Shown: positions 3,026-49,806, numbered from the stretch's first letter. The stretch is DNA of 64,000 bases from an uncultured Desulfobulbaceae bacterium (GCA_964427245.1 CAYRSX010000038.1:2495-66494); one strand, 5' to 3'. Notes: generated from the sequence alone by a model not told the origin. Translations and numbers: made by a program.

Positions 3026-3123
3026 TGGCGGAAGCGCATGGGAATCGAACCCACCCACGAAGCTCTTCACCTCGTGCACTGGATTTGAAGTCCAGGAGGG
3101 CCACCAGTGCCCTTTCCGCTTCC
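3026..3123 (-). tRNA. selC: tRNA-Sec (anticodon UCA)
   Basis: The reverse complement reads GGAAGCGGAAAGGGCACTGGTGGCCCTCCTGGACTTCAAATCCAGTGCACGAGGTGAAGAGCTTCGTGGGTGGGTTCGATTCCCATGCGCTTCCGCCA. It has the anticodon loop CTTCAAA (UCA), a long variable arm (CACGAGG/CTTCGTG), a TTCGATT T-loop, encoded CCA and a GGAAG... 5' end like E. coli selC. Length is 98 nt. Confidence 0.9.
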
Positions 3124-3492
3124 AGTGATATAGAAAAATAAAGGGTTTCCATTAGTTTGTCAATTGAAGGCCGCTATGATTCAGATTGATGACAAGGGGA
3201 AACATTGATCTTCTATAAAAAGATGCATTATGAATAATTAATAATCTTATTCATTATTACTTGCAATTAGTAGTTATCGATCTTATTCTTTTTACAAATA
3301 AGGGCTGGGTAACCCCGCTCTTATTATTGTATCTCGTTATTATTTTTGGTTAATTTTTTTCGTGATATTTGAGTGCCTTTCTGGTAGGTATGTTTCATGG
3401 TTGTAATCACTGCTGGCTTGGGAATGTTTTTTGTCTATGTGTGTTCTTCTGTTGCCTTCTGGTGTCAGAGCAAAACGAAAGGAGAAATTTTT

Positions 3493-6400
3493 ATGTTCAA
3501 AAAGGTCCGATTGGCTATGTTGATGACCATGGTTGGTATCTCATTGGTTTCTGTGGAAGCTTCCCGGGCAGAGGCAATGGATAGCTCCAAATTGTTTCAA
3601 GAATTGGTCAGGTATCATCAAAAGATACCGATAGAAGACAAGAAGGCTACGGCAATGGCAGATAGAAATAAAGGATTGCTGCCAGGAGCGGTTTCAACAT
3701 ACCTAACATCTTATAAGACGTCCTCTTCATCGGCACCAAACAGTTCTGCGGCTAAAAACATAACCGGTATTCAAGAACTGTCTGTATATTTGGGGGTTGC
3801 CTCCGATACCCGTGCAATGGAGATATATGCCCATAATATGCCCGTGCCGACGGTTCCACACTATTTTGGACCTTATGCCAACTGGGCATTCAGTCCCATG
3901 CCGCGCGGTCCAATCGCCAATATCGATGTGGTGAGTGGAGGTGACGGGTATTTCAATCCGCGAGTGGTGGTCGCTGATGTCTATGGAACTGGAATGGGTG
4001 CTACCGCTGCTGCAACTGTCTCAAACGGGGTCATCACCGATATCACCATCAACCAAGCTGGTTCTGATTACACAGCGCCCATGATAGTGGTGGAGGATGC
4101 CACAGGGACGGGTGCTATGGCAATGGCATCATTGGATGCCTCGAAATTGACCGGTGGTATTAGAAAATTTGTGGATTCTTTGCCGGGTGTAGGAGCATCC
4201 AACGCCAGTACACTAGATGGACACTATATTCCGCTTGCCATTCCTGATACTACCTCGTATCCAGGCAGCGATTACTATGAAATAGAACTGCGTGAGTATG
4301 AACATAGATTTCATTCCGATTTGCCACCTACCAGGCTTCGTGGTTATGTTCAGGTAAAGGACGGTTTAGATGTAACACCTATCAGTTATTTCGGCCCTAT
4401 AATAGTAGCTATAAAAGACAGGCCGGTACGCGTTAAATTCACGAACAAGCTGCCTGTTGGCGCTGGGGGCAAGCTGTTTCTGCCTGTGGATAAAACGGTG
4501 ATGGGGGCTGGCACAGGGCCATTGGCAGGTATGAATATGGGCAGGGATGACTTGACCTGTGATATGTCTCCTTTCGACTGTTATACTGAAAACAGAACCG
4601 CCATTCATCTTCACGGGAATAACTCGGCATGGATCAGTGACGGTACTCCACATCAATGGGTTACGCCTGCCGGAGAACAGACACCATATAAAAAAGGAGT
4701 AAGCGTTTTCAACGTACCTGATATGCCGGATCCAGGCGATGGCTCGTTGACCTTTTATTACACGAACAAACAGAGCGCCAGATTGCTTTGGTATCATGAT
4801 CACACCTACGGTCTGACCAGGCTCAATGTATATGCAGGGGAGGCGGCGGGTTATGCCGTGTTGGATTACGTAGAATACGATATGATAGCAGGGACCAACA
4901 CTACCGGTGTCAACCCAGGCAATTATAAGGTATTGCCCGATTATGGTATGCCGCTTGTATTGCAGGATAAGACATTTGTGGATGCCAGGACCATTGCCTA
5001 TCAGGATCCTACCTGGCGTTGGGGTACCACACCGTCCATGCCAAGGACGGGTGACTTGTGGTTTCCGCATGTTTATATGCCTGTTCAGAACGCCTATGAT
5101 CCATCCGGCATGAATCCGTTTGGTAGATGGCATTATGCCTTGTGGTTTTGGCCGCCTGCGACAGATCACCTTTCGTATCCACCCATTGCCAACCCCTATT
5201 ATGACCCTGTCAATGCGCCATGGGAACCGCCTTTTATGCCTGACTTGCCCAATCCTTCCATGCCTGGTGAGGCGTTTATGGATACTCCGGTTGTAAATGG
5301 TGTAGCCTATCCATATCTGGAAGTAGAGCCCAGGGCATACCGTTTTAGGCTGTTGAATGCCGCAAACGACAGGTATTTTAATCTTCAGTGGTATGTTGGT
5401 GTGGATAAAAATACTATGCAGGAGTGTGCCGCTACAACAAATTGTACGGAAGTTCGTATGGTGCCTGCAGTGGCAACCAATGGCTTCCCGTCTTCTTGGC
5501 CTGCAGATGGTAGAGATGGTGGCATCCCTGATCCATTTACAATAGGTCCTGATTGGATACAGATCGGTACAGAAGGAGGATTTCTGCCAGCACCTGTAGT
5601 TATTCCCAATCAGCCAGTTACTTGGAATATGGATCCAACTACCTTCAATTTCGGGAATGTGGATCTGCATTCTCTGCTTTTGGCGCCTGCTGAACGTGCT
5701 GATGTGATTGTGGATTTTTCGCAATTCGCAGGCAAAACCTTGATACTTTATAATGACGCACCTACTCCATTTCCTGCCCATGATCCGCATCTGGATTATT
5801 TTACCTATAACCCGGATCATACGGATATAGGTGGCGCTCCGCCTGCAAAGCCTGGTTATGGTCCGAATACCAGGACGATCATGCAAGTTCGTGTTAAGGA
5901 TATTCCATCTGCTGATCCGTATAACATTGAAAAATTGAAGTCCGTTTTTGCAAAAACATTCGGGAAAAGAGGCGTTTTTGAGGCAAGCCAAGAACCTATA
6001 ATTATTCCACAACCTTTTTACAACTCGGCTTATGACGCCAAGTTTCCTCAAAAGATCGTAAGACAGTTCGAACAGAGCGTGAGTTTTACTACGCTTGACG
6101 GTAAGAATGTAACCATACCTGTGTCGTCCAAGGCCATTCAGGACGAGATGGGCGAGACCTTCGATCCCATGTTTGGACGCATGAGCAGTATGCTCGGCTT
6201 GGAGCTGCCACCCAGCACTGTTGCAAAGGGTTTTATCGTCTATCCGTTTGCTTCTCCTCCCGTAGATATCATAAAGGGATCGGTGACCGGCACGCCTATC
6301 GGTAGTACGGAGGATGGCACTCAGATCTGGCGCATCACACACAACGGAGTGGATACGCATGCCGTTCATCTGCATCTGGTAAATTTCCAGCTCATTAACC

Positions 6401-7887
6401 GAGTTGCCTGGGATGGTTCGCTGCTGTTACCGGATGAAAACGAGTTGGGCTGGAAGGAGACCTTGCGCGTAAATCCTCTGGAACATACTATCATAGCTTT
6501 TAAGCCCACTATTCCGGATGTACCTTTTGATATCCCTAATAGTATCCACCCGATAGATCCGGCTAAGCCCATTGGGGCTATGCTCATGGGTCCTCCTGGC
6601 GGATTCCAGACCCCTACGGCCTTACCCATTACTATTTTGAATCACAATGTCAATTTCGGGTGGGAATATGTATGGCACTGTCATATGCTGGATCATGAAG
6701 AGATGGACATGATGCATGTGTTGAGTTTGGCGGCAAAGCCTGCCAAACCCCAATTAGAGGCTGCTATTATAGGTGCATCTCCTGCGATAAGTGTGAGACT
6801 GAATTGGTCTAAATCCCTTGGGGCCGACAATTATGTATTACAAAAGAGCAGCGATCCCGACATGCAGCACAATGTTACCAGTATGCCGCTGGGGAATATC
6901 ACGAGTTACTATGATCACGTGGGCGATATATATCAGCCGATCTATTATCGCGTCTATGCTACTACAGTGGTAGGCGACAAGGATACATCAGGTTTTCCTG
7001 TGACGACAGTACAGTCCGACTATTCCGACATCTTCTCCACTGCCACCAGGACATGGATGCCTCTTGCTGTTATGGCAAAGGCTACGCCGGGTGTAGTGTA
7101 TGAAAATGGCCGTATCCAGATGGTTATCTTGGATTTAGATGGGCAGTCAATTTTGATCAATGGTCTTGGCACTGACAATAGCTTCCTGGACACATGGAAG
7201 GTGGTAACCAATGCTAATTTTGGTCCAGCCTTGGCTTATGACAATCTTAACAATAAGCTTTATGTGGGTATTGTTGACAATTATATCATGAAGCTGGGCA
7301 GACTGGATTCAAGCTTTTTCGGTTTCATGTTGAACTGGCTGCCGGTCAGCATAGGTGGATCAGCCACGCCTGCAATCGTCTATAATTCGACTAACAGTAA
7401 GTTGTATATATCTGTCGTCAGTAACACAGCGATTTGGTGGAATACCTTCGATACGGTCTCCAATAGCAGTGCTAACTGGAGTTATTTGGGTATAACTTCA
7501 CCTTCGGCGCCATCCATGGCATATGACTCGGATCTGAACAATGTGTATATTGCTGTTCGTACGTTCAATAATACCATATCTCTGAGTGCGATAGACGGAG
7601 CGAGCGGTGATTTTAGCGGGTGGTTATCCATCGGGGGTATTTCGTCGGAGGCACCGGCTCTCGCCTATCATGCCAAAGACAAAAAACTTTACGTTGCCAT
7701 TCGTGATATGAACGATGAGATCGCTTTGGGGATTTTCAACATCTCCAGCCTTACTTTTGAAGGATGGAAGCCTTTGGGCGGAATAAAGACATACATGGCA
7801 CCATCCATGGTATGGAATGTCGCAACAGGCAAGGTAGATATATTTATCAAAGACGGTTTGGGCAGAGTCTTGAAGCTCTCTTATTGA
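3493..7887 (+). CDS. very large secreted multicopper oxidase-like protein with extra N- and C-terminal domains (Geobacter OmpB/OmpC-like architecture)
   Basis: SD AAAGGAG precedes the ATG at 3493, followed by signal peptide MFKKVRLAMLMTMVGISLVSVEASRAEA. The four MCO copper motifs are present: HLHG (TAIHLHGNN), WYHDH, HAVHLHLVNF and HCHMLDHEEMDMM. The C-terminus carries a W-initiated six-fold repeat. I rejected the ORF-track start at 3397 in favour of the SD plus signal peptide. Confidence 0.8.
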   Translation: MFKKVRLAMLMTMVGISLVSVEASRAEAMDSSKLFQELVRYHQKIPIEDKKATAMADRNKGLLPGAVSTYLTSYKTSSSSAPNSSAAKNITGIQELSVYLGVASDTRAMEIYAHNMPVPTVPHYFGPYANWAFSPMPRGPIANIDVVSGGDGYFNPRVVVADVYGTGMGATAAATVSNGVITDITINQAGSDYTAPMIVVEDATGTGAMAMASLDASKLTGGIRKFVDSLPGVGASNASTLDGHYIPLAIPDTTSYPGSDYYEIELREYEHRFHSDLPPTRLRGYVQVKDGLDVTPISYFGPIIVAIKDRPVRVKFTNKLPVGAGGKLFLPVDKTVMGAGTGPLAGMNMGRDDLTCDMSPFDCYTENRTAIHLHGNNSAWISDGTPHQWVTPAGEQTPYKKGVSVFNVPDMPDPGDGSLTFYYTNKQSARLLWYHDHTYGLTRLNVYAGEAAGYAVLDYVEYDMIAGTNTTGVNPGNYKVLPDYGMPLVLQDKTFVDARTIAYQDPTWRWGTTPSMPRTGDLWFPHVYMPVQNAYDPSGMNPFGRWHYALWFWPPATDHLSYPPIANPYYDPVNAPWEPPFMPDLPNPSMPGEAFMDTPVVNGVAYPYLEVEPRAYRFRLLNAANDRYFNLQWYVGVDKNTMQECAATTNCTEVRMVPAVATNGFPSSWPADGRDGGIPDPFTIGPDWIQIGTEGGFLPAPVVIPNQPVTWNMDPTTFNFGNVDLHSLLLAPAERADVIVDFSQFAGKTLILYNDAPTPFPAHDPHLDYFTYNPDHTDIGGAPPAKPGYGPNTRTIMQVRVKDIPSADPYNIEKLKSVFAKTFGKRGVFEASQEPIIIPQPFYNSAYDAKFPQKIVRQFEQSVSFTTLDGKNVTIPVSSKAIQDEMGETFDPMFGRMSSMLGLELPPSTVAKGFIVYPFASPPVDIIKGSVTGTPIGSTEDGTQIWRITHNGVDTHAVHLHLVNFQLINRVAWDGSLLLPDENELGWKETLRVNPLEHTIIAFKPTIPDVPFDIPNSIHPIDPAKPIGAMLMGPPGGFQTPTALPITILNHNVNFGWEYVWHCHMLDHEEMDMMHVLSLAAKPAKPQLEAAIIGASPAISVRLNWSKSLGADNYVLQKSSDPDMQHNVTSMPLGNITSYYDHVGDIYQPIYYRVYATTVVGDKDTSGFPVTTVQSDYSDIFSTATRTWMPLAVMAKATPGVVYENGRIQMVILDLDGQSILINGLGTDNSFLDTWKVVTNANFGPALAYDNLNNKLYVGIVDNYIMKLGRLDSSFFGFMLNWLPVSIGGSATPAIVYNSTNSKLYISVVSNTAIWWNTFDTVSNSSANWSYLGITSPSAPSMAYDSDLNNVYIAVRTFNNTISLSAIDGASGDFSGWLSIGGISSEAPALAYHAKDKKLYVAIRDMNDEIALGIFNISSLTFEGWKPLGGIKTYMAPSMVWNVATGKVDIFIKDGLGRVLKLSY

Positions 7888-7902
7888 GTCATTTAAATAT
7901 TA

Positions 7903-7941
7903 CCTGTTCCATCGATGGTGTTTTCTTAACGATGGAACAGG
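7903..7941 (+). terminator. hairpin after the multicopper oxidase gene (possible terminator)
   Basis: Perfect 12-bp stem CCTGTTCCATCG / CGATGGAACAGG with a 15-nt loop, 16 nt past the stop. The downstream tail is only weakly T-rich. Confidence 0.5.
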
Positions 7942-8064
7942 TAGGTTATTTGAGTACCATTTTAAGTTAATGGCATTCGTGTAATTTCCTTGTGTTCTTT
8001 GGAATTGGGCTTATAATTTAAAATCATACATAAGTGTAGTCCAATGAAGGATGGAGTGAGTAAT

Positions 8065-8685
8065 ATGCCGATAGTTGGCGTATCATACACACAACCCGTT
8101 ATAGCCCCGTTACAAAACCCTTCGGCTGAAGATTTCACTCAAAATACTTCGGCACCTTTACCAGTAATAAATGCTGCCTCATTCAATCCGCAGGACAGAT
8201 ACAGCCCCTCACAAGGATTCGGTGCAGGTGGCAAATCCGTCTCGCGCGAGGTTTCAAATGGTTCAAAGAACGAGCTTACTTCCCAGGAAGTTGCTGTACT
8301 CCTGGAGCTCAAAAAGACTGATCAACAGGTCAGGCAGCACGAAGCCGCGCACATAGCTGCTGGCGGAAGCTATGTATCCAAGGCCGCCTCATATTCCTAC
8401 AAGATAGGGCCTGACGGTAACAGATATGCAGTGGCAGGCGAGGTGGGTATAGATGTTTCTCCTGAACGGGACCCGCGTGCTACGGTGCAGAAGATGGCTG
8501 TGGTGCAGCGCGCCGCCTTGGCGCCTGCCGACCCATCTCCGCAAGACAGGGCCGTTGCCGTCAAGGCCGCCATGACATCTGCTCGGGCCCAGAGCCAGGT
8601 TCTGAGACTTCAGTATGAAAAGAACAATGGAATGTTTTCGGTGTGGTCTGCATCACCTGGAATGACCATCGACACATACGCATGA
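8065..8685 (+). CDS. SprA-related family protein (putative HExxH metalloprotease, CJM1_0395-like)
   Basis: ELKKTDQQVRQHEAAHIAAGGSYVSKAASYSYKIGPDGNRYAVAGEVGIDVSPERDPRATVQKMAVVQRAALAPADPSPQDRAVA matches my recollection of the SprA-related (PF12118-type) signature and includes HEAAH. I chose the ATG at 8065 because of the GGAGTGAG SD. Confidence 0.6.
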   Translation: MPIVGVSYTQPVIAPLQNPSAEDFTQNTSAPLPVINAASFNPQDRYSPSQGFGAGGKSVSREVSNGSKNELTSQEVAVLLELKKTDQQVRQHEAAHIAAGGSYVSKAASYSYKIGPDGNRYAVAGEVGIDVSPERDPRATVQKMAVVQRAALAPADPSPQDRAVAVKAAMTSARAQSQVLRLQYEKNNGMFSVWSASPGMTIDTYA

Positions 8686-43765: not shown

Positions 43766-44341
43766 ATGAAAAAACTAAGGGGAACTCAGACGGAAAGAAA
43801 CATCTTGACTGCCTTTGCGGGTGAGTCACAGGCCCGTAACCGCTATACCTTTTTTGCCAGCCAGGCAAAGAAAGACGGTTATGTGCAGATAGCCGATATC
43901 TTTGAAGAGACGGCTAATCAAGAAAAGGAACATGCCAAGAGGCTTTTTAAGTTGCTCGAGGGAGGCGAGGTGGAGATACGAGCCAGCTTTCCGGCAGGTG
44001 TTATATCCACTACGTATGACAATTTAATAGAGGCCGCCAATGGTGAAAACTATGAGCAGACCATCATGTATCCTGGTTTTGCTAAAATCGCCATTGAAGA
44101 AGGTTTTCAGGAGCTGTCTTGTATCTTCGAGGCCATAGCAGTGGCCGAAAGGCAGCACGAGAAGCGTTATCGTGAGTTGGCCGCAAATATTGTGGCGGAT
44201 CGTGTCTTCAAACGGGACACTGAGGTAGTCTGGCGGTGCCGCAACTGTGGTTATCTACATCAAGGTACGGCAGCGCCGGAAAAGTGTCCTGCATGTGCGC
44301 ACACAAAGGCGCATTTCGAGCTCTTGGCCGAGAACTGGTAA
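43766..44341 (+). CDS. rbr: rubrerythrin
   Basis: Ferritin-like diiron domain ([16 protein letters not shown]...EKEHAKR...ERQHEKR) plus a C-terminal rubredoxin-like WRCRNCGY...CPACAH. Confidence 0.9.
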
Positions 44342-44350
44342 TATTTTTAG

Positions 44351-44368
44351 TACAATTATTTAATTGTA
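44351..44368. promoter_or_regulatory. AT-rich palindrome between rbr and prx (candidate Fur/PerR-family operator)
   Basis: TACAATTA-TT-TAATTGTA has perfect 8-bp arms and lies about 40 nt upstream of the prx start. Confidence 0.35.
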
Positions 44369-44409
44369 ATTGCATGTCATATAAAACTATCAAAAAGGAG
44401 GTAATTCCC

Positions 44410-45048
44410 ATGTGTGAATTCGTTACAAAAGAGGCTCCCAATTTCAAGGCGATTGCTGTGATGCCCGACAACTCTTTTAAGGAGATTAGTCTTTCGGATT
44501 ACAGGGGAAAGTATGTGGTATTGTTTTTCTATCCTTTGGACTTCACCTTTGTGTGCCCCTCGGAGATACTGGCATTTGATAAGGCCGTAGATGAGTTTAA
44601 AAAGAGGGACTGTGAGGTGATAGGTGTGTCGGTGGACTCCCATTTCACACACTTGGCCTGGAAGGATACGCCGGTTGAAAAGGGCGGTATAGGTTGTGTC
44701 AGGTTCCCGTTGGTTGCGGACCTTTCCAAGGCCATTTCTCGGGATTATGGCGTGTTGCTGGAAAGTGGCATAGCTTTGCGCGGTCTGTTCCTCATCGACA
44801 AGGAAGGTATTGTGCGTCATATGCTTGTCAATGACCTGCCTTTGGGAAGAAGTGTGGATGAGGCTATTCGTGTGCTGGATGCCCTTCAGTTTGTGGAGAA
44901 ACACGGCGAGGTCTGTCCTGCTAACTGGAAGCCTGGTGAAGAGGCCATGAAACCCACCAAAGAAGGAGTGGCGGAGTATCTGGCTAAACATGCAAAGACA
45001 GGGGCATCCTGTTGTTCCACTTCCAGTGGTTCCTGCTGCTGTTCCTAA
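44410..45048 (+). CDS. typical 2-Cys peroxiredoxin (AhpC/Tsa family) with a poly-Cys C-terminal tail
   Basis: [15 protein letters not shown] (peroxidatic Cys), GEVCPANW (resolving Cys), tail [24 protein letters not shown] precedes the ATG at 44410. Confidence 0.85.
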
Positions 45049-45054
45049 TAGGCA

Positions 45055-45318
45055 TTATTTTGAGCGCAGCGAGAAATTGGGTGACAGGCGAGGCACTTGT
45101 CCTACTGTTAGAATGATAGAGGGTTTGCTCGGAATGACAACCGCACCACCGGTATGACAGGTGTCTCGCCTGTTATACAATGACAACAAGTGTCATTTCG
45201 AAGGAGCGCAGCGACTGAGAAATCTTGTTTTGAGATTGCTTCGTCTTCGGCTCGCGATGACAGTTGCGGAGCGAGCCCTCTTTACCTGTCATTCCGAGCG
45301 AAGCGAGGAATCTTAACA
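45055..45318. repeat. mosaic repeat cluster (M1, M2, inverted M1 variants, M6 fragment)
   Basis: ...TTTTGAGCGCAGCGAGAAATT..GACAGGCGAGGCACTTGTCC..AGAGGGTTTGCTCGGAATGACA..GACAGGTGTCTCGCCTGT..TGTCATTTCGAAGGAGCGCAGCGACTGAGAAATCTT..GAGATTGCTTCG..TGTCATTCCGAGCGAAGCGAGGAATCTTAA. Confidence 0.85.
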
Positions 45319-45394
45319 GTCTAAATGACAAAACATAAAACCAAAAGCAATGGTTGCCCTTTTTAGGGCCAGAAACTCTACAAGGAGAGAGATT

Positions 45395-46735
45395 ATGAAG
45401 AGACTTTTATCCGTTATAGCTGTGACTGCTGTGATGTCTGCACCATTGGTTGCGGGCGCGGCAGAGATGGGTAAGTTCAAATATGATGACTTTCAAAAAC
45501 CCAGTGAATGCGGTATGTGCCACACCGAGATACATCAGGAGTGGCAGCAGGCTATGATGTCTCAGTCCTTTACACATGAGTGGGACGAGGTGGAGTATTT
45601 CAAGCTCGCTCTGCCTCATGCGCAAAAGCTGGAGAAGGTCTCTGGAGTGAAGGCAGGTTGTATTGCTTGTCACGCGCCGTTGGCCTTTTTGTCCGGAGAC
45701 ATTCCACCCAAGCCAGTAAAGGCCGGCACACGCGCCAATGAGGGGGTATCCTGTGAGATATGCCATAACATCACCGGTTCCACCGAGCAGACTCCGTTCA
45801 ATTTCAGCTTCAACATTCAGCCTGGTGATGTTAAACAAGGGCCTCGCAAAGATGTGAAATCTCCTGGCCATGGCGTGAATTACTCTGAATTCACTCGTAG
45901 CCCGGAGCTCTGCGCCACATGCCACGATGAACAAAGTCCGTATGGCGCCTGGGTAAAGGAGACCTACAGGGAATGGAAGGCAGGGCCTTATGCCAAGGAA
46001 GGCGTGCGCTGTCAGGATTGTCACATGTATCATGCCCCTGGTGTGCCTGGGATGGGAGGTCAGGAACGTGCTGATATGGCGCATCATACCTTTCATGGCA
46101 GCCATTTTCCCAGCAAGCTGGCGGGTGCCATAGACCTGGCCATGTATGCCGAGCAGGAGTCTGTGTCTTCCGGCTCTGATCTGACTGTAAGAGCTGAGCT
46201 TTTTAATGGTAAGGTCGGCCACTATGTGCCGTCTGGTTCCACTGAAGAGCGTATGCTCTGGTTAGAGGTTTGGCTGACCGATGCCAAGGGGAAGAAATAT
46301 GCACTTAAAGTGCAGCCTAAGGGTTTTAAGGGCGAGGAATACACCGTAGCCGATTCAAAGGCCATGGCTTACCAGGATATTGGTGAGATAATGGAGCTGA
46401 CCAATTTCAAAGGGTTGAAGCGTGATGGTAATGTGCCGGATGGTGCTCGTATCTTCAGACGCCCGTTCTTCAACCCCAAAGGCGAGATGACAGTGGCGCA
46501 GTGGTACACGGCCAAAAATGATCTGGTGGACTATCGTGTTGGTCCTCGAGAGACCAAGATCGAGCACTTCAGACTTTCTTTGCCCAAGGAGATGGCCAAG
46601 GGGAAGGCGGTCGTAATTGCAAGACTGCTTTACGGCCAGATCCCAAGCTCGGTGGGTGAGTTCTTCAAGCTCTCCAAGGAGGAATATGCCCCTATTCTGG
46701 TCAATGAAGCCAGAGTGACGGTGGATGTAAAATAG
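45395..46735 (+). CDS. periplasmic pentahaem cytochrome c (uninterrupted paralogue of 12210..13541)
   Basis: SD AAGGAG, signal peptide MKRLLSVIAVTAVMSAPLVAGAA. Five CxxCH motifs: CGMCH, CIACH, CEICH, CATCH, CQDCH. It contains GHYVPSGSTEERMLWLEV and a C-terminal non-haem domain. Confidence 0.8.
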   Translation: MKRLLSVIAVTAVMSAPLVAGAAEMGKFKYDDFQKPSECGMCHTEIHQEWQQAMMSQSFTHEWDEVEYFKLALPHAQKLEKVSGVKAGCIACHAPLAFLSGDIPPKPVKAGTRANEGVSCEICHNITGSTEQTPFNFSFNIQPGDVKQGPRKDVKSPGHGVNYSEFTRSPELCATCHDEQSPYGAWVKETYREWKAGPYAKEGVRCQDCHMYHAPGVPGMGGQERADMAHHTFHGSHFPSKLAGAIDLAMYAEQESVSSGSDLTVRAELFNGKVGHYVPSGSTEERMLWLEVWLTDAKGKKYALKVQPKGFKGEEYTVADSKAMAYQDIGEIMELTNFKGLKRDGNVPDGARIFRRPFFNPKGEMTVAQWYTAKNDLVDYRVGPRETKIEHFRLSLPKEMAKGKAVVIARLLYGQIPSSVGEFFKLSKEEYAPILVNEARVTVDVK

Positions 46736-46841
46736 TTGAACAAAAGGCTCTTTGGTTTATTTAGATTAGGCTGAAGTAAGGGCAATTCTGTGTGATTGCC
46801 CCACTAAAATTAGTAGTTGATACTTGAAAGGAGGTATTACA

Positions 46842-47216
46842 ATGACCGAAAGACTACAGGTTTATAAGTGTGAGATCTGTGGAAACATGGTGGAAATGGT
46901 GCATACAGGTGTGGGCCAGTTGGTATGCTGTGGTCAGCCCATGAAGCTGATGTCCGAAAATACCGTGGATGCATCCAAGGAAAAGCATGTGCCAGTCATC
47001 GAAAAGGTGAATGGTGGTTACAAGGTTAAGGTGGGTTCCGTCCCTCATCCCATGGAGGAAAAGCACTATATCGAGTGGATCGAACTCATAGTCGATGGCA
47101 AGGCATATCGGGAGTTCCTTGCCCCTGGCCAGGCGCCGGAGGCCTTCTTCTGTATTCAGGCCGATAGTGTCACTGCAAGAGAGTATTGCAATTTGCACGG
47201 CCTCTGGAAGGCGTAA
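46842..47216 (+). CDS. dfx: desulfoferrodoxin (class I superoxide reductase)
   Basis: N-terminal desulforedoxin motif [24 protein letters not shown], then an SOR domain (EKHVPVIE...[14 protein letters not shown]...CNLHGLW). Confidence 0.9.
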
Positions 47217-47239
47217 TCGTTAAGAGAATTATTCTTTCA

Positions 47240-47271
47240 GGGACAGGTCGGAATGGAACCGCTCCTGTCCC
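47240..47271 (+). terminator. hairpin after dfx (possible terminator or attenuator)
   Basis: GGGACAGG-16 nt-CCTGTCCC followed by GTTTCT. The U-tract is weak. Confidence 0.4.
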
Positions 47272-47308
47272 GTTTCTAACTGTTCTCTACCTTAAAAAGG
47301 AGCAAAAA

Positions 47309-47836
47309 ATGTTGAACTCAAGACTCGAGGCAGCACTTAATCAGCAGATCAATGCCGAGCTCTATTCGGCATATCTATATTTTTCCATGGCATCATATCT
47401 TGCCTCCATAGACCTGGCTGGATGTGCCCATTACATGCATGCCCAGACACAGGAGGAGCTTTTGCATGCATCCAAAATGTATGAATACGTTAATGAAAGA
47501 GGCGGTAGAGTTATTATGGATGCTATAAAGGCCCCAAAGACTCAGTGGAGCTCGCCCCTCGAGGCATTTGGGGACGCTTACAAACATGAACAACATGTGA
47601 CGAGCCTGATAAACAATCTCATGGAGTTGGCTATTGCTGAGAAAGACCATGCCACACAGATCTTTTTGCAGTGGTTTATATCGGAGCAGGTGGAGGAAGA
47701 GGCCTTTGCCAATGCAGTGGTGCAGCGCATGAATCTGGCCAACAATGCACAGGGCGGGCTTTTTATGATTGACAAGGAACTGGCGGCCCGTCCTCTGACC
47801 TTTGTGCTTGCAGCCAATAAAACCCAAGGAGAATAA
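47309..47836 (+). CDS. ftn: non-haem ferritin
   Basis: LNQQINAELYSAYLYFSMASY...EELLHASKMYEYVNERGG...QHVT...FLQWFISEQVEEE are Ftn ferroxidase-centre motifs. SD AAGGAG precedes the ATG at 47309. Confidence 0.85.
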   Translation: MLNSRLEAALNQQINAELYSAYLYFSMASYLASIDLAGCAHYMHAQTQEELLHASKMYEYVNERGGRVIMDAIKAPKTQWSSPLEAFGDAYKHEQHVTSLINNLMELAIAEKDHATQIFLQWFISEQVEEEAFANAVVQRMNLANNAQGGLFMIDKELAARPLTFVLAANKTQGE

Positions 47837-47839
47837 TGT

Positions 47840-48247
47840 ATGAGCAGACCTGAAGATATGTGGCAGTGCCAGACCATCAATTGCGGTTATATCTATGATC
47901 CGGATCGGGGTGATAGAAAGGGTAAAATTCCTAAAGGAACTAAATTTGAGGACCTGCTCGATGACTGGAAATGTCCAGTCTGTGGTGCGGGTAAGTCTAT
48001 GTTCAGGCCTCTGGCAGGTCCTGGTTCTGTAATGGCACAGGATGTAAAAAAGACCGCTGATGCAGTTTCTGCAGCTAATGTAGATGTAGGATCAAAATAT
48101 AGATGCAATGTATGCGGCTACATTTATGATCCAGCGGTAGGGGATAGTTCACAAGGGATTGCAACTGGTACGTCTTTTGATGCCTTGCCAGACAACTGGA
48201 AGTGCCCTGTGTGTGGGGCCAGCAAAGAGGAATTTGAGGAGATCTGA
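47840..48247 (+). CDS. tandem rubredoxin (a CX4C-type Rd-like domain fused to a canonical CX2C rubredoxin)
   Basis: Domain 1 is [14 protein letters not shown]...[10 protein letters not shown]. Domain 2 is [12 protein letters not shown]...[10 protein letters not shown]. Confidence 0.85.
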
Positions 48248-48248
48248 T

Positions 48249-48599
48249 ATGGCCAAAAAAATGGCTATATTCGCCTTTAGAGGCGATTCAATGTGTTTCG
48301 TCCATGTCCTCTTAAATGCCCTTGACTTGTATGCCAGGGGCATGGGAGGCGATATCGTTGTGGAAGGTGAGGCAACGAAGCTTCTTCCAATCCTTGAAGA
48401 TTCCACTCATTTTTTGCACGGCCTATATAAACAGGTAAAAGAAAAAGGCCTGATTGTTGCTGTTTGTAAGGCATGTTCCAGCAAAATGGGTGTGTTTGAG
48501 CAGATAAAGTCCATGGGACTGCCCTTGAGCGATGAGATGTCGGGGCACCCAAGTATGGGCCGTTTTTTGGAACAAGGCTTTGAGATTATCGTAATGTAA
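48249..48599 (+). CDS. small DsrE/DsrF-like fold protein (tentative)
   Basis: 116 aa, MAKKMAIFAFRGDSMCFVHVLLNALDL...LIVAVCKACS... The DsrE-like resemblance is weak and comes from memory only. Confidence 0.4.
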   Translation: MAKKMAIFAFRGDSMCFVHVLLNALDLYARGMGGDIVVEGEATKLLPILEDSTHFLHGLYKQVKEKGLIVAVCKACSSKMGVFEQIKSMGLPLSDEMSGHPSMGRFLEQGFEIIVM

Positions 48600-48609
48600 A
48601 GGAGAAAAT

Positions 48610-49806
48610 ATGATTACTGAAATCAAAAAGGATATCTATTGGGTGGGTGCCATTGACTGGACCATTCGAGACTTTCACGGCTATTCCACCTATGAGGGCA
48701 CCACATATAACGCATATCTGTTGAAGGACGAAAAGACTGTGCTCTTCGACACGGTCAAGAAGTCCAAGATGAGCGATCTGGTACACCATGTTCGCTCTCT
48801 TACAGACCCTCAGAGAATCGATTACATCGTGGTCAATCATGTGGAGATGGATCATTCTGGTTCCCTTCCTGAGATGATCGACCTCATCAAGCCGGAAAAG
48901 GTTATCTGTTCCACTATGGGGAAAAAGGCCCTTTTGGACCATTTTCATCGAGAAGATTGGCCGTATGAGGTGGTTGCACCAGGCCAGGTGATCAGCGTTG
49001 GCAAGCGCTCCATTCAGTTCATCGAGACGCGCATGCTGCACTGGCCAGACAGCATGTTTTCATATATCCCTGAAGAGAAGCTGCTCATCTCCAGCGATGC
49101 ATTTGGCGAACACTGGGCCACCAGTGAGCGTTTCGATGATGAAGTAGATTTCACCACCCTCATGCGACACAACGCCAAATATTATGCAAACATATTGCTT
49201 TTATATTCTCCTTTGGTGGGGAAACTTATAGAGAATGTCAAAAAGCTCGGGCTTCAAATCGACATGATCGCCCCTGATCATGGCCTCATTAAGCGGAAAT
49301 ACGTAGCCGATATGTTGCAGGCATACGCTGACTGGGCTGCACACAAGGCCAAGAAGAAGGCGGTAGTGGTCTATGACACCATGTGGCACAGCACAGAGAT
49401 GATGGCCAAGGCAGTGGCGGACGGTATCATGCGCGAGGGCGTGAGCGTAAAGCTCATGGATTTGCAGGTCTGCCACAGAAGCGATGTCATGACCGAGGTC
49501 TTGGATGCCAAGGCAGTGGTATTGGGCTGCCCCACGTTGAATAACGGCTTGCTGCCACGCATGGCGGGTTTTCTCATGTATATGCGGGGGCTCAAGCCGA
49601 GCGGCAAGATCGGTGTTGCTTTTGGTTCTTATGGCTGGAGCGGCGAGGCTGTTAAGCTCATGAATCAGGCTATGGAAGAGATGAAATTTGAGGTGGTTCA
49701 TGATGGTATTCGTGTAAAGTATGTGCCTGTTCATGAAAACCTCAAGGAGTGTGTTGAATTAGGCAAAAAAGTAGGGCAGGCTATTAATGCCGCCTTGAAT
49801 GATTGA
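48610..49806 (+). CDS. flavodiiron protein (rubredoxin:oxygen/NO oxidoreductase, FprA/ROO type)
   Basis: Metallo-beta-lactamase-like diiron motif VNHVEMDHSGSLPE plus a C-terminal flavodoxin domain (KKAVVVYDTMWHSTE...GCPTLNNG). Confidence 0.9.
   Translation: MITEIKKDIYWVGAIDWTIRDFHGYSTYEGTTYNAYLLKDEKTVLFDTVKKSKMSDLVHHVRSLTDPQRIDYIVVNHVEMDHSGSLPEMIDLIKPEKVICSTMGKKALLDHFHREDWPYEVVAPGQVISVGKRSIQFIETRMLHWPDSMFSYIPEEKLLISSDAFGEHWATSERFDDEVDFTTLMRHNAKYYANILLLYSPLVGKLIENVKKLGLQIDMIAPDHGLIKRKYVADMLQAYADWAAHKAKKKAVVVYDTMWHSTEMMAKAVADGIMREGVSVKLMDLQVCHRSDVMTEVLDAKAVVLGCPTLNNGLLPRMAGFLMYMRGLKPSGKIGVAFGSYGWSGEAVKLMNQAMEEMKFEVVHDGIRVKYVPVHENLKECVELGKKVGQAINAALND

What the first reader, a model, noticed from the sequence alone, without database searches (positions are those of the whole stretch)
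3493..7887. A ~1460-aa secreted multicopper oxidase in an oxygen-defence-rich anaerobe (OmpB/OmpC-like architecture)
All four MCO copper-ligand motifs are visible: HLHG, WYHDH, HAVHLH and HCHMLDHEEMDMM. The protein is about three times the size of a laccase or CueO.

The extra parts are:
- a Sec signal peptide;
- an N-terminal region with a duplicated G-T-G-x-G-A segment (ADVYGTGMGATAAATV / EDATGTGAMAMASL);
- a post-oxidase segment of about 130 aa, possibly Ig- or FnIII-like;
- a six-repeat C-terminal module.

The only characterised relatives of this size that I know of are the Geobacter outer-surface multicopper proteins OmpB and OmpC, which are implicated in insoluble Fe(III)/Mn(IV) oxide reduction. 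An O2-reducing enzyme class in an organism whose neighbouring genes indicate an anaerobic lifestyle has no obvious substrate or role.
Basis: partly seen in the sequence, partly recalled or inferred. Interest (0 to 1): 0.6.

Follow-up and report, generated by a model that had tools for sequence, protein, structure and literature searches.

The report
Giant secreted copper oxidase with lectin tail
This gene encodes an intact, exported, oxygen-reducing copper oxidase of the large, poorly understood family thought to include Geobacter OmpB and Leptothrix MofA, here with a rare sugar-binding propeller tail; it is a real but fairly ordinary new member of a family common in oxygen-sensitive microbes.

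Summary
Window 3493-7887 (+) is one 1464-aa ORF with a ribosome-binding site and a Sec-type signal peptide. It carries all four copper motifs; every copper ligand and both catalytic acids (D383, E1069) are invariant in 74 relatives.

Residues 223-1080 are a CotA-type three-domain multicopper oxidase swollen by long loops (AF2 pLDDT 83; Foldseek CotA TM 0.83). In front lies a tandem ~37-aa GGxGY module also seen in phage tail proteins. Behind lie an FN3-like domain and a six-bladed propeller closest to Photorhabdus PLL fucose lectins.

The family is very large (over 6,000 hits). The window protein sits in a clade of anaerobes from both domains, 55-60% identical: methanogens, Methanoperedens, Bathyarchaeota, Clostridia. 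Geobacteraceae members (44-48% identical) lie in other clades. Some of them carry the FKBP/SCO1/MofC-like genes described for ompB/mofA clusters; this gene does not.

Most likely it is an extracellular O2-reducing metal or phenol oxidase pinned to a glycan matrix in a hot-spring mat. The substrate is unknown. A direct comparison with GSU1394 could not be made.

Verdict: new member of a known kind, modest interest.

The parts
3480..3484 (+). Ribosome-binding site AGGAG, 8 nt before the ATG at 3493
   Evidence: Read from the sequence. It is conserved in the 89%-identical relative L082.
3493..3576 (+). Sec-type signal peptide, residues 1-28 (MFKK...SRAEA|MD)
   Evidence: Sequence reading: a basic n-region, a hydrophobic core and an A-x-A cleavage site, with no RR motif and no lipobox Cys. 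No predictor was run.
3577..3855 (+). Poorly conserved Ser-rich N-terminal linker, residues 29-121. It contains a short, weakly conserved basic helix motif (KIPIEDKKATAMADRNK).
   Evidence: Alignment A1. No Pfam or PDB match.
3856..4158 (+). Conserved PHYFGP motif plus a tandem pair of ~37-aa GGxGY beta-modules, residues 122-222
   Evidence: Invariant columns in A1 and A2. pLDDT is about 90 or higher in the model. Local Foldseek matches of 83-107 columns at 24-39% identity to phage tail-fibre and baseplate proteins.
4159..6732 (+). CotA-type three-domain multicopper oxidase core with long inserted loops, residues 223-1080
   Evidence: phmmer to CotA, E=7e-37, in five collinear pieces. AF2 pLDDT 83.3, pTM 0.87. 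Foldseek to CotA 5zlj, E=1.7e-36, target-normalised TM 0.83.
4606..4617 (+). Copper motif 1, HLHG (H372, H374). The catalytic acid D383 follows at 4639-4641.
   Evidence: D383 aligns with CotA D116.
4789..4803 (+). Copper motif 2, WYHDH (H435, H437)
6358..6375 (+). Copper motif 3, HAVHLH (H956 is a T1 ligand; H959 and H961 belong to the trinuclear cluster)
6676..6714 (+). Copper motif 4, HCHMLDHEEMDMM. It holds H1062, C1063, H1064 and H1068, the proton-relay acid E1069, and the axial Met M1073.
   Evidence: E1069 aligns with CotA E498 and M1073 with CotA M502.
6733..7053 (+). FN3-like beta-sandwich spacer, residues 1081-1187
   Evidence: Conserved W...YYRV.A.N..GD signature in A1. Six to seven strands in the AF2 model.
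7054..7884 (+). Six-bladed PLL-lectin-type beta-propeller, residues 1188-1464, built from six Trp-started repeats of 47-48 aa
   Evidence: phmmer to PLL2 6rfz, E=2.5e-8. Precomputed PF26607 Beta-prop_PLL. AF2 pLDDT 81 with 24 strands. The top 22 Foldseek hits are Photorhabdus PLL/PHL lectins at E around 2e-13.
7902..7942 (+). Perfect 13-bp hairpin 15 nt after the stop codon. It is either a terminator or a REP-type element, and it sets the gene apart as a single unit.
   Evidence: Read from the sequence. The consensus terminator scan did not call it.

Best explanation
The gene encodes a working, Sec-exported, four-copper oxidase of the large family of giant multicopper oxidases thought to include Geobacter OmpB and Leptothrix MofA.

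Catalysis (inferred from conserved residues and fold):
- A CotA-like three-domain core takes single electrons from an extracellular reductant at the type-1 copper (H956, C1063, H1068, axial M1073).
- The electrons pass through the Cys-His bridge to the trinuclear cluster, which is held by eight histidines.
- There O2 is reduced to water, with D383 and E1069 supplying protons.
- I commit to a reduced metal ion, Fe(II), Mn(II) or Cu(I), as the most likely substrate. A phenolic compound is second.

Anchoring (inferred from fold and from what the same module is fused to elsewhere):
- The FN3-like spacer and the six-bladed PLL-lectin-type propeller hold the enzyme on a glycan-rich surface.
- That surface could be the cell's own envelope or the extracellular polysaccharide matrix of the hot-spring mat.
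- The N-terminal GGxGY pair is a small surface module shared with phage tail proteins.

Physiological role (inferred): consuming O2 and oxidising metals outside the cell of an oxygen-sensitive bacterium that meets oxygen regularly.

Shown here: gene integrity, ligand and catalytic-residue conservation, predicted folds, family and clade placement.
Inferred: activity, substrate, location and role.
For: Gene and catalytic machinery:
- The ORF is intact, with a ribosome-binding site and a signal peptide.
- The identical sequence is held by five metagenome runs from two studies of hot-spring and microbial-mat samples.
- All 10 His, 1 Cys and the axial Met, plus D383 and E1069, are invariant in 74 homologues.
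- Two cysteine pairs (356/363 and 645/651) fit an extracytoplasmic protein.

Fold:
- Core model: pLDDT 83.3, pTM 0.87. Best structural match is CotA, with target-normalised TM 0.83.
- Tail model: pLDDT 81. Its top 22 hits are Photorhabdus fucose / O-methyl-sugar lectins (ligand specificity from PMC6943638).

Propeller as a portable module:
- It is rare: 291 hits among 1.84 billion representative proteins.
- Of the ten hits scanned, it is appended to M12B, S8, C1 and M10 proteases and to another copper oxidase. This is the behaviour of a targeting or binding module.

Family and clade:
- Over 6,000 family hits.
- The gene sits in a well-supported clade of anaerobes from both domains.

Context:
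- The window encodes rubrerythrin, a flavodiiron protein and ferritin, so the organism invests in oxygen defence.
Against: - No expression data exist; no RNA run holds the gene.
- No member of this clade has been assayed, and no paper on the family in methanogens or other strict anaerobes was found.
- The substrate cannot be read from sequence. The closest solved structures (CotA, bilirubin oxidase, phenoxazinone synthase) act mainly on organic substrates.
- Whether the protein leaves the periplasm is unknown. No type II secretion genes are nearby.
- No copper chaperone or MofB/MofC-type partner lies nearby, so the copper-loading route is unknown.
- The propeller has six blades, not the seven of PLL lectins, and its sugar-binding residues were not checked.
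- The only genetic phenotype reported for the family (Geobacter ompB/ompC) concerns Fe(III) oxide reduction, not oxygen (PMC5566968, PMC9769739).
Confidence: 0.55

Rival explanations
1. OmpB/OmpC-type helper of dissimilatory metal-oxide respiration. The surface protein would promote contact with, or electron flow to, insoluble Fe(III)/Mn(IV) oxides under anoxia, working with the cell's multihaem cytochromes rather than with oxygen.
For: - Family relatives in Geobacteraceae have ompB/mofA-type gene clusters.
- The window encodes multihaem cytochromes, including an ExtKL-type pair 4 kb downstream.
Against: - The protein lies in a different clade from all Geobacteraceae sequences.
- It lacks the MofC-like cytochrome, the SCO1 and the FKBP neighbours.
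- Its clade is full of methanogens and fermenters that are not known metal respirers.
- Strict conservation of the O2-reducing residues D383 and E1069 has no explanation if O2 is never the acceptor.
- A type-1 copper with an axial Met is, from general knowledge, too high in potential to reduce Fe(III) oxides.
Confidence: 0.15
2. Laccase or polyphenol oxidase acting on organic substrates. It would oxidise phenolics, humic material or pigment precursors in the mat matrix, for detoxification, cross-linking of the matrix or pigment formation, as the CotA spore-coat laccase does.
For: - The closest solved structures are CotA laccase, bilirubin oxidases and phenoxazinone synthase.
- NCBIfam's best (sub-threshold) match is o-aminophenol oxidase PhsA.
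- A lectin tail that places the enzyme in a polysaccharide matrix fits matrix chemistry.
Against: - Identity to those enzymes is only about 22-23%.
- The large conserved loops that set this family apart have no counterpart in laccases.
- The characterised or proposed relatives of this size are tied to metals, not phenolics (PMC5566968).
- From general knowledge, CotA itself also oxidises Mn(II), so the fold does not settle the substrate.
Confidence: 0.22
3. Mainly an adhesin or structural surface protein whose oxidase core is vestigial or only binds copper.
For: The adhesion-type modules (GGxGY, FN3, lectin propeller) make up about a third of the protein.
Against: - Every copper ligand and both catalytic acids are invariant across 74 sequences from two domains at 57-66% identity. 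This is the signature of selection on catalysis.
- The core, not the tails, is the conserved part of the family.
Confidence: 0.03

Closest known systems
OmpB (GSU1394) and OmpC (GSU2657) of Geobacter sulfurreducens; large surface multicopper proteins
   Same: - Both are exported multicopper oxidases of well over 1000 residues followed by an FN3-type domain.
- Geobacteraceae family members align with residues ~223-1080/1166 of the window protein at 44-48% identity.
- Both are found in anaerobes rich in multihaem cytochromes.
   Different: - The window protein is in another clade.
- It lacks the MofC-like cytochrome, SCO1 and FKBP neighbours.
- It carries a PLL-type propeller tail instead of Ig-like or InlB-repeat tails.
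- It was never compared directly with GSU1394 or GSU2657, which could not be fetched.
- A role in Fe(III) oxide reduction is untested.
MofA of Leptothrix discophora (mofABC operon; putative Mn(II) oxidase)
   Same: The literature places it in the same broad family as OmpB (PMC5566968). It is a giant secreted multicopper oxidase with a presumed metal substrate.
   Different: The window gene has no mofB (FKBP) or mofC partner. MofA is from an aerobic metal oxidiser. It was not compared directly here.
CotA laccase of Bacillus subtilis (PDB 1gsk, 5zlj) and related bilirubin oxidases
   Same: - Same three-cupredoxin fold (target-normalised TM 0.83).
- Same four copper motifs, axial Met, and catalytic D116/E498 equivalents.
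   Different: - CotA has 513 aa, against about 860 aa for the matching core here.
- About 320 residues of conserved inserted loops are present only in the window protein.
- Identity is only about 23%.
- CotA has no signal peptide, GGxGY module, FN3 or propeller.
PLL-family lectins of Photorhabdus (PLL, PLL2-5, PHL; PDB 5c9l, 6rfz, 5mxe)
   Same: Trp-started repeats of about 47 aa form a beta-propeller. They are the best sequence match (E=2.5e-8) and the best structural match (E around 2e-13) for residues 1188-1464.
   Different: - Six blades here against seven in PLL lectins.
- It is a C-terminal module of an enzyme, not a free lectin.
- Identity is 16-19%.
- The sugar-binding residues and any ligand are unverified.

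Membership tests
Three-domain multicopper oxidase (CotA / bilirubin-oxidase type) | Four copper motifs providing 10 His and 1 Cys, with an axial Met at the type-1 site | tested here: met
   The residues are H372, H374, H435, H437, H956, H959, H961, H1062, C1063, H1064, H1068 and M1073. All are aligned to the CotA ligands and invariant in 74 homologues.
Three-domain multicopper oxidase (CotA / bilirubin-oxidase type) | Three cupredoxin domains in the CotA arrangement | tested here: met
   AF2 model pLDDT 83.3, pTM 0.87. Foldseek to CotA gives E=1.7e-36 and target-normalised TM 0.83.
Three-domain multicopper oxidase (CotA / bilirubin-oxidase type) | Second-sphere acids needed for O2 reduction (CotA D116 and E498) | tested here: met
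   D383 and E1069 align with them and are invariant.
Three-domain multicopper oxidase (CotA / bilirubin-oxidase type) | Copper occupancy and oxidase activity | not testable with these tools
   This needs purified protein.
OmpB/OmpC/MofA-type giant multicopper oxidases | Full-length homology of the extended oxidase core to family members from Geobacteraceae | tested here: met
   - Identity is 44-48% over about 850-1000 residues to Geomonas paludis, Geobacter sp. and Geobacteraceae MAG proteins.
- The same inserted loops are conserved.
OmpB/OmpC/MofA-type giant multicopper oxidases | Direct similarity to the characterised proteins GSU1394, GSU2657 or Leptothrix MofA | tested here: inconclusive
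   - G. sulfurreducens is not named among the top 120 hits of a Geobacter-clade query.
- The genome search tool was shut, so the sequences could not be fetched.
- The link rests on the cluster description in PMC5566968.
OmpB/OmpC/MofA-type giant multicopper oxidases | Gene cluster with a MofC-like cytochrome/binding protein, SCO1 copper chaperone and/or MofB-type FKBP isomerase | tested here: not met
   - At least one of these partner genes lies beside the oxidase in 7 proteobacterial loci (L076, L068, L072, L046, L073, L049, L058). SCO1 and the MofC-like gene were found in only L076, L068 and L046.
- They are absent near the window gene and from the rest of its clade.
OmpB/OmpC/MofA-type giant multicopper oxidases | FN3-type domain after the oxidase | tested here: met
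   Residues 1081-1187 form a beta-sandwich with an FN3 signature. Relatives carry PF00041.
OmpB/OmpC/MofA-type giant multicopper oxidases | Outer-surface location and a role in Fe(III)/Mn(IV) oxide reduction or Mn(II) oxidation | not testable with these tools
   This needs fractionation and genetics.
PLL-family propeller lectins (Pfam PF26607) | Trp-started ~47-aa repeats with sequence similarity to PLL/PHL | tested here: met
   - Trp residues lie at 1188, 1235, 1282, 1329, 1377 and 1425.
- phmmer gives E=2.5e-8 to PLL2.
- A precomputed PF26607 hit exists.
PLL-family propeller lectins (Pfam PF26607) | Seven-bladed propeller | tested here: not met
   There are six repeats by sequence, and 24 strands (six blades) in the AF2 model.
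PLL-family propeller lectins (Pfam PF26607) | Inter-blade fucose / O-methyl-sugar binding sites with stacking Trp | not tested

The most novel reading that the evidence does not exclude
The anaerobe clade of this family, 55-60% identical between methanogens, Methanoperedens, Bathyarchaeota, Clostridia and this bacterium, may be a horizontally traded extracellular 'oxygen shield'. It would be a high-affinity O2-reducing metal oxidase that burns incoming oxygen outside the cell. In this hot-spring mat organism the six-bladed PLL-type lectin propeller would pin the shield to the fucose- and O-methyl-sugar-rich slime of oxygenic phototrophs, that is, at the source of the oxygen.
Probability: 0.2. 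Interest if true: 0.65.

Novelty: new member of a known kind. Interest (0 to 1): 0.33.

Why it matters
The single gene adds little. The family behind it is one of the largest groups of clearly functional yet unexplained enzymes in oxygen-sensitive microbes. It is a complete O2-reducing copper oxidase kept at 55-60% identity across Bacteria and Archaea, and its substrate is unknown twenty years after OmpB was described.

This member offers three handles for experiments:
- It stands alone, with no partner genes, which makes it simple to express.
- Its tail predicts a testable glycan ligand.
- It comes from a mat with daily oxygen swings, where expression should follow light if the oxygen-defence idea is right.

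Cultured carriers such as Clostridium malenominatum JCM 1405, Methanosphaerula and Geomonas paludis could supply genetics.

Tried and rejected
- **N-terminal residues 29-246:** Pfam and PDB sequence searches found nothing usable. Only local structural matches to phage tail proteins appeared.
- **Propeller alone as a query in the word-indexed protein search:** no hits. The exhaustive search did find 291.
- **Direct tie to G. sulfurreducens OmpB:**
  - A search with a Geobacter-clade oxidase listed many Desulfuromonadales proteins but none named G. sulfurreducens.
- **Fur box upstream (suggested by another note):** no match to the 19-bp consensus within 3 mismatches anywhere in the window. I saw no convincing sigma-54 promoter when reading the leader by eye; no scan was run.
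- **Expression:** no RNA run holds the gene.
- **Conserved neighbours across 82 loci:**
  - Nothing is shared by the window's clade.
  - Histidine-kinase and response-regulator genes recur in about 20 loci, but these are broad families and none is next to this gene.
  - The SprA-related neighbour is shared only with the 89%-identical relative.
- **Recent horizontal arrival:** GC and GC3 are ordinary for the window, although the gene lies beside tRNA-Sec and the family tree is strongly mixed across phyla.
- **669-aa antisense ORF (4366-6375) as an overlapping gene:** rejected, because it is broken in the 89% relative. The translation looked like junk when read by eye.
- **Literature on this family in methanogens or strict anaerobes:** none found.

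Full report
**1. The observation**

Window 3493-7887 (+) is a single open frame of 1464 codons. AGGAG lies at 3480-3484, 8 nt before the ATG. The longer 3397 start has no such site.

The first 28 residues (MFKKVRLAMLMTMVGISLVSVEASRAEA|MD) read as a Sec signal peptide. There is no twin arginine and no lipobox cysteine. This is a sequence reading; no predictor was available.

A perfect 13-bp hairpin at 7902-7942 follows the stop codon. The flanking genes run on the other strand or are unrelated (an aroB-like gene, tRNA-Sec, an SprA-related protein, comEC), so the gene looks like a unit of its own.

The exact sequence is held by five metagenome runs from two studies, labelled microbial mat and hot springs. 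The same gene order recurs on a 97-kb contig carrying an 89%-identical copy. An assembly artefact is therefore unlikely.

**2. The oxidase**

Sequence matches:
- Pfam sees only Cu-oxidase_2.
- NCBIfam gives sub-threshold matches to PhsA and CueO.
- phmmer against PDB sequences matches CotA at E=7e-37. The match comes in five collinear pieces spanning residues 247-1080.

Catalytic residues:
- The four motifs are HLHG (372-375), WYHDH (433-437), HAVHLH (956-961) and HCHMLDHEEMDMM (1062-1074). They supply all ten His, the Cys and the axial Met.
- D383 and E1069 align with CotA D116 and E498. The PDB entries returned describe those two positions as trinuclear-site neighbourhood mutants.
- All of these residues are invariant in 14 and in 74 homologues.

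Structure:
- An AlphaFold2 model of residues 116-1190, built on 74 sequences, has mean pLDDT 83.3 and pTM 0.87.
- Its best PDB matches are some twenty-five CotA entries, led by 5zlj at E=1.7e-36 and target-normalised TM 0.83. Bilirubin oxidases and phenoxazinone synthase follow.

The core is thus a CotA-type three-domain oxidase. About 320 extra residues sit in conserved loops, mainly at 461-575, 635-720, 757-932 and 994-1055. No structure of this enlarged family has been solved.

**3. The added parts**

- **Residues 122-222.** These hold an invariant PHYFGP motif and two ~37-aa GGxGY units, 139-176 and 177-215.
  - They are modelled with pLDDT about 90 or higher.
  - They have no Pfam or PDB sequence match.
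  - The model finds short local matches (83-107 columns, 24-39% identity) in phage tail-fibre and baseplate proteins.
  - In Methanolobus chelungpuianus seven more copies are inserted into a loop between oxidase domains 2 and 3.
- **Residues 1081-1187.** This is an FN3-like sandwich.
- **Residues 1188-1464.** These consist of six Trp-started repeats of 47-48 aa.
  - Alone they match Photorhabdus lectin PLL2 at E=2.5e-8.
  - They carry a precomputed PF26607 Beta-prop_PLL hit.
  - The model (pLDDT 81.2) has 24 strands, that is, six blades.
  - Its top 22 structural matches are PLL/PHL lectins at E around 2e-13, followed by six-bladed fungal fucose lectins.
  - PLL lectins are seven-bladed. They bind L-fucose and O-methylated sugars between blades (PMC6943638).
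- **The propeller elsewhere.** The module is rare, with 291 hits among 1.84 billion representative proteins. Of the ten hits scanned with Pfam, it is fused to M12B, S8, C1 and M10 proteases and to another copper oxidase. That is how a portable binding module behaves.

**4. Family and placement**

Size and conservation:
- The word-indexed search returned 6,167 significant proteins among the 8,000 scored. The best are 55-60% identical over residues ~122-1180.
- C-terminal tails vary: FN3, PKD, FG-GAP, Ig-like. Only four of the top 120 carry the PLL propeller.

Named genomes holding the family:
- Anaerobic archaea: Methanoregula, Methanospirillum, Methanoperedens, Methanomassiliicoccales, Bathyarchaeota.
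- Other anaerobic lineages: Aminicenantes, Omnitrophota, Clostridium malenominatum, Coriobacteriia.
- Genera that are aerobic by general knowledge: Kitasatospora, Neobacillus, Cryobacterium.

Tree and gene neighbourhoods:
- A tree of 78 cores puts the window protein, with its 89% relative, in a clade of 24-25 rows. The clade has SH-aLRT support of 96-98 and is made of anaerobes from both domains.
- Geobacteraceae fall in three other clades.
- At least one of the FKBP, SCO1 and MofC-like (single-haem plus periplasmic-binding domain) genes lies beside the oxidase in seven proteobacterial loci. Those seven include three of the four Geobacteraceae loci.
- SCO1 and the MofC-like gene were found in only three of the seven (L076, L068, L046).
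- This is the arrangement reported for ompB and mofA clusters (PMC5566968).
- None of these partners lies near the window gene or elsewhere in its clade.

G. sulfurreducens OmpB itself could not be fetched. It was not named among the top 120 hits of a Geobacter-clade query. The OmpB link is therefore well grounded but indirect.

**5. How it most likely works**

The conserved machinery says the protein reduces O2 to water, using electrons taken one at a time at the type-1 copper.

The signal peptide, two likely disulfide pairs (356/363 and 645/651) and three adhesion-type modules say it acts outside the cytoplasm and is held on a surface.

The organism is an oxygen-sensitive bacterium. In the same window it encodes rubrerythrin, a flavodiiron protein, ferritin, ferredoxin-dependent oxidoreductases, multihaem cytochromes and selenoprotein machinery. 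It lives in hot-spring mats, which by general knowledge swing between oxygen-rich and anoxic states.

My best reading is an extracellular O2-consuming oxidase of a reduced metal, or less likely of a phenolic, anchored by its lectin tail. Overall confidence is 0.55, and about 0.9 for the identity part alone.

Rivals:
- An OmpB-like role in metal-oxide respiration (0.15).
- A laccase acting on organic matter (0.22).
- A mainly adhesive protein (0.03).

**6. Comparison and novelty**

The protein is a member of the CotA-type oxidase superfamily; all sequence- and fold-level features tested were met. It is also a member of the giant-oxidase family that contains the Geobacteraceae proteins. Homology and FN3 are met, the partner-gene cluster is not, and direct comparison with the type proteins is inconclusive.

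Its tail resembles PLL lectins but fails the seven-blade criterion.

Earlier notes of this scan on other genomes reached the same family assignment. I treat those as leads, not as evidence.

Nothing here is a new kind of system. The PLL-type tail and the stand-alone gene are variations within a family known for variable tails.

**7. Dead ends**

See the tried-and-rejected field: the Fur box, RNA evidence, conserved neighbours, composition, the antisense ORF and the literature search.

Noticed in passing
window 3026-3123 (-): tRNA-Sec (anticodon UCA) lies directly upstream of the oxidase gene. In-frame TGA codons in this genome may therefore encode selenocysteine.
   Followed up: partly
window 4366-6375 (-): A 669-aa antisense ORF runs in phase with oxidase codons 292-961, a stretch with almost no TTA/CTA/TCA codons (naive P about 6e-6). 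It is broken in the 89%-identical relative, so it is a shadow ORF and not a gene. The translation also looked like junk when read by eye.
   Followed up: yes
window 8044-8685 (+): An SprA-related (PF12118) protein follows the oxidase here and in the 89% relative L082. It is found in none of the other 80 loci, so the pairing is lineage-specific.
   Followed up: partly
P0118 (Methanolobus chelungpuianus), alignment A1 columns ~1060-1290: Seven extra copies of the GGxGY ~37-aa module are inserted into a surface loop between oxidase domains 2 and 3. The same small module is thus used both as an N-terminal pair and as an internal array.
   Followed up: no
core model m1edbb06f67fd against BFVD: A 1102-aa 'copper oxidase' of the giant virus Satyrvirus matches the core model at E=5.5e-34. 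Several phage tail-fibre and baseplate proteins match only the GGxGY module.
   Followed up: no
P0243-P0257 (hits of window 7051-7884): The PLL-type propeller is rare, with 291 hits in 1.84 billion representative proteins. Of the ten hits scanned, it is appended to M12B, S8, C1 and M10 proteases and to a smaller copper oxidase.
   Followed up: partly
L029 6364-9684 and 10259-14284: Two tandem paralogous giant oxidases lie on one contig of an uncultured bacterium.
   Followed up: no
about 20 of 82 loci, e.g. L007 10316-12521 (-): A histidine kinase and a response regulator recur next to family members, for example in Clostridium malenominatum. This hints at dedicated sensing in some lineages. 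None lies next to the window gene.
   Followed up: partly
window 43766-49806: An oxygen-defence cluster comprises rubrerythrin (43766-44341), a multihaem cytochrome (45350-46735), ferritin-like (47186-47836) and a flavodiiron protein (48610-49806).
   Followed up: partly
window 7902-7942: A perfect 13-bp hairpin with a 15-nt loop follows the oxidase stop codon. It may be a terminator or one of the REP-type hairpins noted elsewhere in this window.
   Followed up: no
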